This document shows, in pieces, positions 48,001 through 51,000 of a DNA stretch of 64,000 nucleotides. A program made the position numbers. Where the stretch lies: NCBI GenBank assembly GCA_965285935.1, contig OZ260662.1:68882001-68946000 (forward strand), given 5' to 3'. Numbering within the stretch: the first letter of the stretch is position 1; each line of letters starts with the position of its first letter. The DNA comes from Ophelia neglecta (taxonomy: Eukaryota).

Positions 48001-51000
48001 GGCATTCAATATCATGAAGACGATAAGCTCTTTGGGGTTACTTTAATGACTTTTTTTGAAACTACCATTTACAGGCAAGACGCGTCCATCCTTCAGAAGA
48101 ATACAAAGTTTTCTCGGCTCCAGTCTGATGCTGAAGAAGATGTCGATACCAGCGGCACACCAACTAGGGGTACTCAAAATTGCCAGACAGAGGTAAAGGT
48201 TACGACAGCTGTCTGGCAATATAGTTTGAATGTTGGGCCTTGTAGCACAATGAAAACTACTTTCAGCCGGGTGTAATACAATCAATGAAGACAGATGACA
48301 GAATAGCATCTTGCTACGACATACATAATCAGTCTTGAGGACCTGTTGAAGCAAGGATCCCGATCTCCTAAAGTCTTTACTTTGACCAGAACAGATATAA
48401 TATGCCTGATTGTGGCACCTTCAGACATCAATGCTAGTGGCATATTCAACAAAATAATTTTGTTTTACAGGTATGATCTACCGGTCGAGGCCATTGCCCC
48501 TTTAATGAATCTTTTGCCGGTATTGCTGAAGCCCAACCCGATTTGTGCTGGCCCGGATATGTCAGAGATTGTCCATGTAACCCCCGGGACTTGTCCCTGT
48601 CTTCTAAACAACCACAAAAGACGTTGCTATCCATATGCCAAGTACCGCACCATAGACGGGTCTTGTAACAACCTGGGCAGGCCACTCTGGGGAAAATCCA
48701 ACCGACCGCTGGCCAGGTACCTGCCCTCGGATTACGCTGACGGTAAGGAACGCTTTTAGGTAATTTTAAGTGTCGTCAGGTGTACGTTGAAGACACTGGG
48801 TGTGCTTTACGGTGACATTTTGGGAGATACGAAGATATTTTGCATTTGAATTAACAATTGCTTATGGTCATAGTTGATTCAGTTTTAATATTCATATTCA
48901 TATGAAAATAGAGGTTTCGAAATAATGCCTGTCGTAGTACTTAGTCATCCTTGGTAGGACTAAACGGCGCAGCGGACTGCTTTCCGTCAGTCTACATTCA
49001 CCTATATGCGGCCGCGCGGACAGCGCCGCAGTGTTATTCCTGCAAATGACTACTAGGACAGCCAACCTTTCGACGTTGGTCAAGAACCTCTATTTTTACA
49101 TGGATATAATTTTTTCTTTACTGAATCGACTATGACGAATCGAATGTTTAAATGTGACCATAGCATATCACCACTCTATATCGCCGGAAAAATAGCGCAT
49201 TTTGGTGAAGTCGGAAAATTTCGGCTTCCGTCAGACGGCTGATGGCTTCCGGTATGGCAATAAGGGCCTACTTTGAAAAATGTAAACAACATAATAAAAC
49301 ATAGAGCTGCCCTTTGAAGCCACGTAACTTAGCTAACACTAGTCTGATCGAAGATTCGTCAAATTTAATGTTCATGTTAAATGAATAATTGACCATTACT
49401 GCAGGCATAGGTGATCCCAGAGTGAGTGTCAGCGGAGGTCCTCTCCCCACTGTACGTAAGATTACCCTGGAGCTCTTCGGAGATACCGACAGCCCCAGCC
49501 ACCTAGCCACCGCCATGCACATGCGCTTTGGACAGTTCCTGGACCACGACCTTGACCGTACTGCTATTGCCAAACTGACGACCACGGAAGACGGCTCGGG
49601 GCCGACCATGGACGTGACCTGTGGGGATGATGGGTGTAGTACCGAGGGAGAGGAGAACCGAGCCTGCTTCCCGATCCCGATACCCGACGGAGATCCGGAC
49701 TTCGGTGATCAAAAGTGTCTCATGTTTGTCCGTACTGAGGAAGGCTTACTTGACGACTGTCGATTAAGTAAGTTCCGGAAAATTATTTATTTGAGGCCAG
49801 TCAAGGATAAGAAATACATTTCCATTATTATTATGGCCCAGTGTACGAATATTATGTCAATTTGGTGCCCAGTCGCCTGGACTCACCCTTGGTTGATAAT
49901 CCGCGAAGACGTACATGTACTAGACAGCTATTTTGAGACCGTGGGACGAAATGAAGTCTAGTAAACCAGAATTTGTGACTGGTGTCCTATTTATAATGAA
50001 TACCTAGGGATTCTAGACAGACTGCTTATATACTAGATTTATTAATTATTTTAAGAACGGGCGAATCCAGGGTTAAAGTAAGTAAATGTAGTTTTATTTT
50101 GACCTTTCATGTGGGGGACTCCCTTTACTATCACACCGCCGTGCCACACCGTATACACTGTATGTATGGGCACAGCACAAGTTAGTATGGTCTCTACTTA
50201 GAATAGAGGCCTTTAAATGTTGGCCCACACTTATCACGCTTCACTGGTTATTAATAGTGTGCAGTCTGACTGAATTTCACAAGTCACCCAGTGCAGACAG
50301 AATTTGAACCAAATGGAGGGATAAATGCTAGGCTTGTAATTCCTGTGAAATATGTAAAATTGTGTTGTTGTTTTTTCTGATTAAACAGACAGCCAATATT
50401 TCTGAAATTTCATATTCAATTTTAGACATACCAATCATTTCAAAATCTATCAATATTGAGCCTGATGTTTTGATTTATATATTACTCACTAATTTGGTCA
50501 CTCTGGCCCACTGTTAACAATGACAGCAGTGTAATGTGGGTAATTATATGCTGTTGACACCTGATGGGAAGTACAAATATTCTATAGCAATTTCCTGCCT
50601 ATTGTAGAAAGCTTCGGAAACTGATACCGCGAGAGTTAATACATACACCCACTCACATATGTGTCCCTCTCCACAGGGTCAATCTCTAAAACATTTCTAG
50701 GCCTAAAATATGTTAGTATACTTTACAATTCAATAATAATACTTAGAACTGATAACCTTACAGGCCTAATAATAGGCCTATGTAGGCCTTTTTGTACGGA
50801 AAACGGTAAGACATTATTGCCTAGCACCTTACGCCATTTCTTTGGACAGATTGTGTGTACAATGTAAAACATAAAAGCATGCCTAATAATTGTGGCTGAT
50901 TGAATATCAATATATGACTGAGCAAACATGCAGCAGCTGATCATGAGACAACCACCGCATTGTCATTCCCACTGTTCAGTTCGCCCCTAGTGTTCAAATA

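What the first reader, a model, noticed from the sequence alone, without database searches (positions are those of the whole stretch)
49515..49773. Gene-conversion tract homogenising the distal-His exon of the inverted paralogues
Seen: 49515-49773 is the reverse complement of 26971-27229 with only about 5 mismatches in 259 nt by eye, three of them in the last ~25 nt. The first ~110 nt of the same exon, the neighbouring exons (many synonymous changes) and the introns are strongly diverged. The tract begins just before FGQFLDHD. Inference: recent ectopic conversion, favoured by the inverted arrangement, keeps the distal heme pocket identical while the CBM14 and pro regions diverge.
Basis: partly seen in the sequence, partly recalled or inferred. 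Interest (0 to 1): 0.68.

Follow-up and report, generated by a model that had tools for sequence, protein, structure and literature searches.

The report
Gene-conversion tract between inverted peroxidase paralogues
Two old, head-to-head copies of a chitin-binding haem peroxidase gene share one ~233-base stretch of near-identical sequence inside an exon, which is best explained by one copy having overwritten the other there (ectopic gene conversion), a well-known and ordinary process.

Summary
Window 49515-49773 is the reverse complement of 26971-27229 with 5 mismatches in 259 nt. The stretch lies in exon 5 of two head-to-head CBM14 + animal-haem-peroxidase genes: gene C on the + strand and gene B on the - strand.

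A maximum chi-square scan narrows the tract to 49515-49747, which is 233 nt with 2 mismatches. None of 200 shuffles reached the observed value.

Silent-site divergence separates the tract from the rest:
- Core tract: dS 0.041, from 2 of 50.3 synonymous sites.
- The other 530 aligned codons: dS 1.04.
- The first 36 codons of the same exon: dS 1.86.
- Fisher test on synonymous sites: p = 1e-12.

Protein constraint does not explain the identity. A third paralogue (A) matches only 41 of 78 aligned tract residues and has indels. No RNA structure or Rfam family lies there.

Ectopic gene conversion is therefore well supported. The adaptive reading is not: FGQFLDHD is invariant even in paralogue A, and most of the tract encodes a variable loop. 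Whether the inverted arrangement favoured the event is untested.

A second, older candidate tract lies in exon 7. Orthologue trees and raw reads could not be checked. This is an ordinary new example of a known process.

The parts
49515..49747 (+). Core conversion tract in exon 5 of gene C (233 nt, 2 synonymous mismatches to gene B)
   Evidence: The maximum chi-square scan picks exactly this segment, and 0 of 200 shuffles reach the observed value. dS is 0.041 and dN is 0 over 77 codons.
26997..27229 (-). Counterpart of the core tract in exon 5 of gene B
   Evidence: Ungapped reverse-complement alignment.
49748..49773 (+). Probably outside the tract.
   Evidence: Mismatches at 49748, 49751 and 49755. 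The 7 tail codons have dS 0.60, which is near background. Splice context.
49405..49767 (+). Exon 5 of gene C (distal-His exon, An_peroxidase profile positions 37-133)
   Evidence: Acceptor cag| and donor |gtaagt, with the frame open. Pfam PF03098, 64.1 bits. Aligns to the distal-motif region (GQLLDHDLD) of myeloperoxidase chains in the PDB.
26977..27339 (-). Exon 5 of gene B
   Evidence: Splice sites and open frame. 109 of 120 residues are identical to gene C (26 of 36 pre-tract, 83 of 84 in the tract).
49405..49514 (+). Unconverted 5' part of exon 5 (32 mismatches in 110 nt)
   Evidence: dS is 1.86 over 36 codons.
52261..52374 (+). Second, weaker candidate conversion tract in exon 7 of gene C (counterpart in gene B at 25317-25430, - strand)
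   Evidence: 38 codons with 7 nt differences. dS is 0.15, against 1.25 in the rest of exon 7. With the first tract masked, the permutation gave 3 of 2000 (penalty 4) and 14 of 2000 (penalty 2). This test is post hoc.
47006..58814 (+). Gene C: CBM14 exon, pro-region exons and peroxidase exons E4-E12, as far as traced
22065..34114 (-). Gene B: inverted, head-to-head paralogue of gene C, as far as traced
11215..15130 (-). Gene A: a third, distant peroxidase paralogue (45-65% amino-acid identity per exon), used as an internal outgroup
   Evidence: tblastn of the gene C exons against the window. Its exon 5 scores 69.9 bits for PF03098. Alignment.

Best explanation
The window holds two old paralogues of a secreted haem peroxidase with an N-terminal chitin-binding (CBM14) domain. 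They lie head to head, with their exon 5 copies 22 kb apart. Their silent sites are close to saturation (dS about 1) and their introns can no longer be aligned.

Inside exon 5, a segment of about 233 nt (C 49515-49747, B 27229-26997) was copied non-reciprocally from one gene into the other. This is interlocus (ectopic) gene conversion. [quoted passage not shown]

Only two silent differences have accumulated since. The last event therefore dates to roughly 4% of the age of the pair, measured on silent sites.

What is shown: the tract, its boundaries, the collapse of dS, and the absence of a protein-level or RNA-level reason for the identity.

What is inferred: the repair mechanism, the timing, and the direction. 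There is a weak compositional hint that gene C was the donor. Whether this was one event or the latest of a recurrent series in a self-sustaining island of identity is also inferred. The event is most simply neutral. It does not need to serve the haem pocket.
For: - 5 mismatches in 259 nt. The refined tract has 2 in 233 nt by maximum chi-square, with 0 of 200 shuffles reaching the observed value of 61.9 (largest shuffle 20.5).
- Nei-Gojobori counts, made exon by exon: tract 4.0 of 55.2 synonymous sites (dS 0.076); core 2.0 of 50.3 (dS 0.041, dN 0); all other 530 codons 207.8 of 369.3 (dS 1.04, dN 0.168); the upstream part of the same exon dS 1.86.
- Fisher tests: p = 1.1e-12 on synonymous sites. 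Among same-amino-acid degenerate codons, 4 of 79 differ in the tract and 154 of 378 outside it (p = 3e-11).
- Permutations: 0 of 2000 at mismatch penalties 2 and 4. The longest run of identical same-amino-acid codons is 40, against a maximum of 32 in 2000 shuffles.
- Outside the tract, pS does not vary significantly among exon segments (chi-square p = 0.19, or 0.63 with the exon 7 sub-tract removed). The tract is therefore an outlier on a uniform old background.
- Paralogue A matches only 41 of 78 aligned tract columns and has 6 gap columns. Protein constraint therefore cannot hold 83 of 84 residues, let alone silent sites.
- There is no RNA signal. Fold z-score is +0.54, and 135 of 200 shuffles fold at least as well. 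Rfam gave 0 matches in the whole window. The antisense ORFs over the tract match 0 Pfam families.
- Both genes have open frames and canonical splice sites at all nine exon pairs examined, except for one GC donor. Both therefore look functional.
- Passages read in PMC3966223 report tracts of more than 191 bp and conversion into regions of 77% identity next to about 70 bp of perfect identity in linked paralogues.
Against: - The flanks are only about 71-75% identical, which is a poor substrate for homologous repair. A single de novo event is mechanistically harder than the word 'recent' suggests. There is also no gradient of divergence toward the 5' boundary (5 mismatches in the last 22 nt), which an eroding island might be expected to show.
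- The classical phylogenetic test could not be run. That test asks whether paralogues group by species inside the tract and by orthology outside it. No eukaryotic sequence collection was open.
- Only two sequences carry the signal, so multi-sequence GENECONV/RDP was replaced by permutation tests of my own.
- At mismatch penalty 1 the segment test was uninformative (1085 of 2000 shuffles reached the observed score).
- Raw reads were not available, so an assembly artefact is argued against but not excluded.
Confidence: 0.85

Rival explanations
1. Recurrent conversion under selection. The tract, and the weaker one in exon 7, are self-sustaining islands of concerted evolution. They are kept because the two enzymes must share identical haem-cavity or loop segments.
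For: Two candidate low-dS islands fall in the exons that carry the distal motif (E5) and the EHNR region (E7). In the core tract dN is 0. High local identity would itself allow repeated conversion (passages in PMC3924832 and PMC3966223 on dependence on identity).
Against: FGQFLDHD is invariant in paralogue A without any conversion. Most of the tract is a loop that varies against A (41 of 78 columns, 6 gaps). The exon 7 sub-tract carries 4 amino-acid differences and few silent ones, which is not what selection for identity predicts. Two islands among nine exons is too few to tie to function. The exon 7 test is post hoc.
Confidence: 0.08
2. Assembly or polishing artefact. Reads from one copy were used to correct the other, which made a truly diverged segment look identical.
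For: The tract length (233-259 nt) is of the order of a short read or read pair. Reads could not be inspected.
Against: Cross-mapping needs similarity that already exists. At the background of about 25% mismatch, reads would not map to the wrong copy. Two to five differences survive inside the tract. The change from 29% to under 1% mismatch falls within a few bases inside an exon. Both reading frames stay intact.
Confidence: 0.04
3. Nucleotide-level constraint since the duplication. An overlapping element, such as a splicing regulator, antisense RNA or embedded regulatory sequence, freezes silent sites in both copies without any exchange.
For: Identity is near-perfect at silent sites, and long antisense ORFs cross the tract (49268-49708 on the - strand, 27036-27368 on the + strand).
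Against: There is no thermodynamic structure signal (z +0.54), no Rfam family and no Pfam family for the antisense ORFs. Paralogue A shows no nucleotide-level match to the tract in the blastn self-comparison. Constraint would need to hold about 50 silent sites at 4% divergence while neighbouring silent sites in the same exon are saturated.
Confidence: 0.03

Closest known systems
Concerted evolution of palindromic gene pairs in Drosophila (Hsp70Aa/Ab, Amy-p/Amy-d), as reviewed in PMC3924832 (passages read)
   Same: Linked paralogues in mirror-image orientation. Ectopic conversion homogenises coding sequence while flanking non-coding sequence evolves independently.
   Different: In Drosophila the whole coding region is kept nearly identical by continuing conversion. 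Here only about 233 nt of one exon (perhaps also about 114 nt of another) is homogenised, in genes that are otherwise at dS about 1.
Short conversion tracts between moderately diverged linked paralogues, e.g. C. elegans fog-2/ftr-1, and the GENECONV survey of Semple and Wolfe, as reviewed in PMC3966223 (passages read)
   Same: Tracts of tens to a few hundred bp. They are detected as runs of identity longer than the flanking divergence allows. Conversion is possible next to short blocks of perfect identity even when the flanks are about 77% identical.
   Different: fog-2/ftr-1 are tandem in direct orientation with KS about 0.28. The present pair is inverted, 22 kb apart at this exon, and far more diverged.
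Animal haem peroxidases (Pfam PF03098; myeloperoxidase and lactoperoxidase structures)
   Same: The exons match PF03098 piece by piece: 7 of 9 peroxidase exons of gene C score above the curated cut-off. Exon 5 aligns to the distal GQxLDHDL region of myeloperoxidase and lactoperoxidase chains.
   Different: The genes carry an N-terminal CBM14 chitin-binding exon, which the matched peroxidase chains were not examined for. PDB E-values are modest (1.4e-5 at best for this one exon).

Membership tests
Interlocus (ectopic) gene-conversion tract | A contiguous segment with significantly fewer differences than the rest of the paralogue alignment (GENECONV or maximum chi-square criterion) | tested here: met
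   Maximum chi-square 61.9 at 49515-49747, with 0 of 200 shuffles reaching it. Segment permutation gave 0 of 2000 at penalties 2 and 4. Penalty 1 was uninformative (1085 of 2000).
Interlocus (ectopic) gene-conversion tract | Silent sites are homogenised as well as replacement sites | tested here: met
   dS is 0.041 (core) and 0.076 (84 codons), against 1.04 in 530 other codons. Fisher p = 1.1e-12.
Interlocus (ectopic) gene-conversion tract | The identity is not explained by protein constraint or by an overlapping element | tested here: met
   Paralogue A matches 41 of 78 aligned tract columns and has 6 gap columns. Fold z-score is +0.54. Rfam gave 0 matches. The antisense ORFs match 0 Pfam families.
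Interlocus (ectopic) gene-conversion tract | Phylogenetic incongruence: paralogues group by species inside the tract and by orthology outside it | not testable with these tools
Interlocus (ectopic) gene-conversion tract | The tract is real in the DNA and not an assembly product | not testable with these tools
   No reads were available. The arguments against an artefact come only from the background divergence and the surviving differences.
Palindrome-type concerted evolution (whole arms or whole coding regions kept identical) | Near-identity across the whole coding sequence or arm | tested here: not met
   The other exon pairs are 74.9-88.9% identical and no intron aligns. dS is 1.04 outside the tract.
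Animal haem peroxidase (PF03098) | A profile match above the curated cut-off and the distal Q-x-x-D-H-D motif | tested here: met
   Exon by exon, 7 of the 9 peroxidase exons of gene C scored above 25 bits. E10 (20.2 bits) and E12 (21 bits) scored below. GQFLDHD is present in A, B and C. The exons were never joined, so the whole-domain score was not measured.
CBM14 / peritrophin-A chitin-binding domain | A profile match above the curated cut-off | tested here: met
   Gene C exon 1 scores 30.6 bits and gene B exon 1 scores 33.3 bits, against a cut-off of 22.1.

The most novel reading that the evidence does not exclude
The exon 5 tract and the weaker exon 7 tract are not accidents. They are two sub-exon islands of selectively retained concerted evolution on segments that line the haem cavity, in paralogues that have otherwise been free to diverge since a duplication at dS about 1. 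On this reading, conversion is tolerated only where the two enzymes must stay interchangeable and is purged elsewhere.
Probability: 0.08. Interest if true: 0.5.

Novelty: new member of a known kind. Interest (0 to 1): 0.25.

Why it matters
For annotation and phylogenetics, the tract is a warning. Trees or dating built on exon 5 of these paralogues would make them look about 25 times younger than the rest of the gene does.

It also shows that non-allelic repair can still act between linked copies whose overall silent divergence is near saturation. That bears on how long duplicated genes stay coupled.

Beyond that it is a textbook process in a gene family of moderate interest (chitin-binding haem peroxidases). 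Nothing here suggests a new mechanism.

Tried and rejected
- RNA element: folding the 233-nt core gave z +0.54, and Rfam found nothing in the 64 kb window at gathering thresholds. Rejected.
- Antisense coding: the two long antisense ORFs over the tract matched no Pfam family. They are treated as by-products of GC-rich codons.
- Conversion templated by cDNA or mRNA: rejected. The 5' boundary lies inside the exon. The identity does not continue into the next exon, E6, which has dS 1.87.
- Protein constraint: rejected using paralogue A.
- GC-biased conversion: tract GC3 is 52 of 84 against 287 of 530 in gene C (p = 0.20), and 54 of 84 against 262 of 530 in gene B (p = 0.013, uncorrected). At most this is a weak hint that C was the donor. 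It is not evidence of biased conversion.
- A mosaic of many older tracts: pS does not vary significantly among the other segments (p = 0.19). Only exon 7 stands out.
It was repeated with 2000.
- The segment test at mismatch penalty 1 was uninformative.
- Literature: one search found 0 papers holding 'gene conversion', 'animal heme peroxidase' and 'paralog' together. Searches gave general reviews only. The passages read in PMC13425148 did not bear on the question.
- The organism was not identified.

Full report
**What is at the coordinates.** Window 49515-49773 on the + strand equals the reverse complement of 26971-27229 except at five positions. These are 49547, 49622, 49748, 49751 and 49755. 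The window contains no N. Nothing in it suggested a human origin.

**The genes.** A blastn self-comparison shows ten pairs of short inverted matches that run in opposite order along 22065-32786 and 48102-58814. They are 74.9-90.1% identical, and nothing aligns between them. Splice sites and open frames define homologous exons in each pair. All Pfam scans were made exon by exon.
- The first traced exon of each gene is a CBM14 chitin-binding domain (30.6 and 33.3 bits, cut-off 22.1).
- Exons E4-E12 of gene C cover Pfam An_peroxidase positions 1-527. Seven of these nine exons score above the curated cut-off. E10 (20.2 bits) and E12 (21 bits) score below it.
- Gene B lies on the - strand (about 34114 down to 22065) and gene C on the + strand (about 47006 to 58814). 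Their 5' ends face each other across about 13 kb, which holds a 140-bp satellite.
- A third, much more distant paralogue, A, lies on the - strand at about 15130-11215. It is 45-65% identical per exon by tblastn.
Whole-protein scores and folds were therefore not obtained.

**Anatomy of the tract.** Exon 5 of gene C is 49405-49767, with acceptor cag| and donor |gtaagt.
- The first 110 nt of the exon carry 32 mismatches.
- From 49515 to 49747 there are 2 mismatches.
- Three more follow within 8 nt (49748-49755).
- Then come 12 identical exon bases and the donor, and after that the intron, which does not align.
- A two-breakpoint maximum chi-square scan of the exon selects 49515-49747 (233 nt, 2 mismatches). 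The value is 61.9, the largest of 200 shuffles is 20.5, and 0 of 200 reach the observed value.
- The seven tail codons have dS 0.60, which is near background.
- I therefore place the tract at 49515-49747 in gene C and 27229-26997 in gene B.

**Is it more than chance or constraint?** Nei-Gojobori counts were made on per-exon codon alignments, and only the counts were pooled.

| Segment | Codons | Synonymous differences / sites | dS | dN |
|---|---|---|---|---|
| Core tract | 77 | 2.0 / 50.3 | 0.041 | 0 |
| All other aligned codons (E3-E11) | 530 | 207.8 / 369.3 | 1.04 | 0.168 |
| Same, without the less certain E3 | 492 | 192.8 / 341.3 | 1.05 | 0.159 |
| Upstream part of exon 5 | 36 | 19.0 / 27.7 | 1.86 | 0.167 |

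- The Fisher test on synonymous sites gives p = 1.1e-12.
- 457 of the 614 aligned codons encode the same degenerate amino acid in both genes. The other 157 were dropped before this count. Of the 457, 4 of 79 differ inside the tract and 154 of 378 outside it (p = 3e-11).
- Shuffling these flags never reproduced the best-scoring segment at mismatch penalties 2 and 4 (0 of 2000 each). It also never reproduced the run of 40 identical codons (maximum 32). At penalty 1 the test was uninformative, because the best segment spanned nearly everything (1085 of 2000).
- Outside the tract, pS does not vary significantly among segments (p = 0.19).
- Paralogue A shares FGQFLDHD with B and C. Over the tract it matches only 41 of 78 aligned columns and has 6 gap columns. 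Over the pre-tract it matches 13 of 36. The encoded segment is therefore not unusually constrained.
- The core does not fold better than shuffles (z +0.54). Rfam finds nothing in the window. The antisense ORFs over the tract match no Pfam family.

**Mechanism.** The simplest account is interlocus gene conversion. A break in one exon 5 was repaired from the other copy, which replaced about 233 nt. The two silent differences that remain (CAC/CAT and TGT/TGC) put the last event at about 4% of the pair's silent-site age. This figure is rough, because dS near 1 is close to saturation.

The direction is unknown. The tract's GC3 is typical of gene C (52 of 84 against 287 of 530, p = 0.20) and atypical of gene B (54 of 84 against 262 of 530, p = 0.013, uncorrected). 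That is a weak hint that C was the donor.

One difficulty remains. The flanks are only about 71-75% identical, which is a poor substrate for homologous repair. Either the event was a rare homeologous repair, or the segment had been kept similar by earlier conversions. Passages read in PMC3966223 describe conversion into a region of 77% identity next to about 70 bp of perfect identity between linked C. elegans paralogues. They also mention tracts of more than 191 bp. The size and setting seen here therefore fall within what is already known.

**A second candidate.** With the first tract masked, the best remaining segment is in exon 7 (C 52261-52374, B 25430-25317). It has 38 codons and 7 nt differences. 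Its dS is 0.15, against 1.25 in the rest of that exon. The permutation gave 3 of 2000 at penalty 4 and 14 of 2000 at penalty 2. This is a post hoc test. It would fit an older or partly overwritten conversion.

Conversion is supported. The functional gloss is not.
- The distal motif is held by ordinary purifying selection even in the copy that shows no nucleotide-level similarity to B or C.
- Most of the tract is a variable loop.
- That the CBM14 and pro-region exons are strongly diverged is correct. The local protein alignments show it, and no nucleotide match for the CBM14 exon appears. But nearly all the peroxidase exons are strongly diverged too.
- Whether the inverted orientation favoured the event was not tested. 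The passages read in PMC3966223 say the effect of orientation is unresolved, and that one survey suggested conversion is more likely between paralogues in the same orientation. PMC3924832 (passages read) notes that in palindromic pairs crossover products are deleterious, so conversion is what is seen.

**Comparison with what is known.** The closest cases are the palindromic Hsp70 and Amylase pairs of Drosophila. There, conversion is confined to coding sequence but covers all of it (PMC3924832). Also close are the short tracts between moderately diverged linked paralogues in Caenorhabditis (PMC3966223). A search for 'gene conversion', 'animal heme peroxidase' and 'paralog' together found no paper. 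This is weak evidence about novelty for this family, and none about the phenomenon.

**What stayed unchecked.**
- Orthologues and per-segment trees, because no eukaryotic collection was open.
- Raw reads.
- The organism.
- The joined coding sequence.
- Supplements of papers, which were not consulted.

**Verdict.** Gene conversion is the best explanation (0.85). The adaptive reading is unsupported. This is a new example of a known process, of modest interest.

Noticed in passing
window 52261-52374 (+) and 25317-25430 (-): A second low-dS segment lies in exon 7 of the same gene pair. Its dS is 0.15, against 1.25 in the rest of the exon. It has 7 nt differences in 114, and 4 of the 5 differing codons change the amino acid. 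It may be an older conversion tract.
   Followed up: partly
window 11215-15130 (-): A third haem peroxidase paralogue (A) has much shorter introns. Per exon it is 45-65% identical to gene C at the amino-acid level. It lies in the same orientation as gene B.
   Followed up: partly
window 39780-42265: A 140-bp satellite (17.8 copies, 89% matches) lies between the 5' ends of the two head-to-head genes.
   Followed up: partly
window 28807-29247 (-): An ORF with a Pif1 helicase 2B domain (58.3 bits) lies inside the intron between exons 4 and 5 of gene B. It is probably a remnant of a Helitron-like or Pif1-like element.
   Followed up: partly
window 52454-52459 (+): The donor of exon 7 in gene C reads aatg|gcaagt, an apparent GC-AG intron. 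Gene B has a canonical gt at the homologous site.
   Followed up: no
window 3022-3201, 60186-60365 (direct, 85.6%) and 16468-16560 (inverted): A dispersed repeat family lies outside the peroxidase genes and is probably a transposable-element fragment. There is also a 79-bp tandem repeat at 3488-3723.
   Followed up: no
window 58814-58860 (+) and about 22065 (-): Exon 12 ends in both genes at a site that reads both as a stop codon (TAA or TGA) and as a perfect donor (gtaagt or gtgagt). Whether the coding sequence ends there or continues was not resolved.
   Followed up: no
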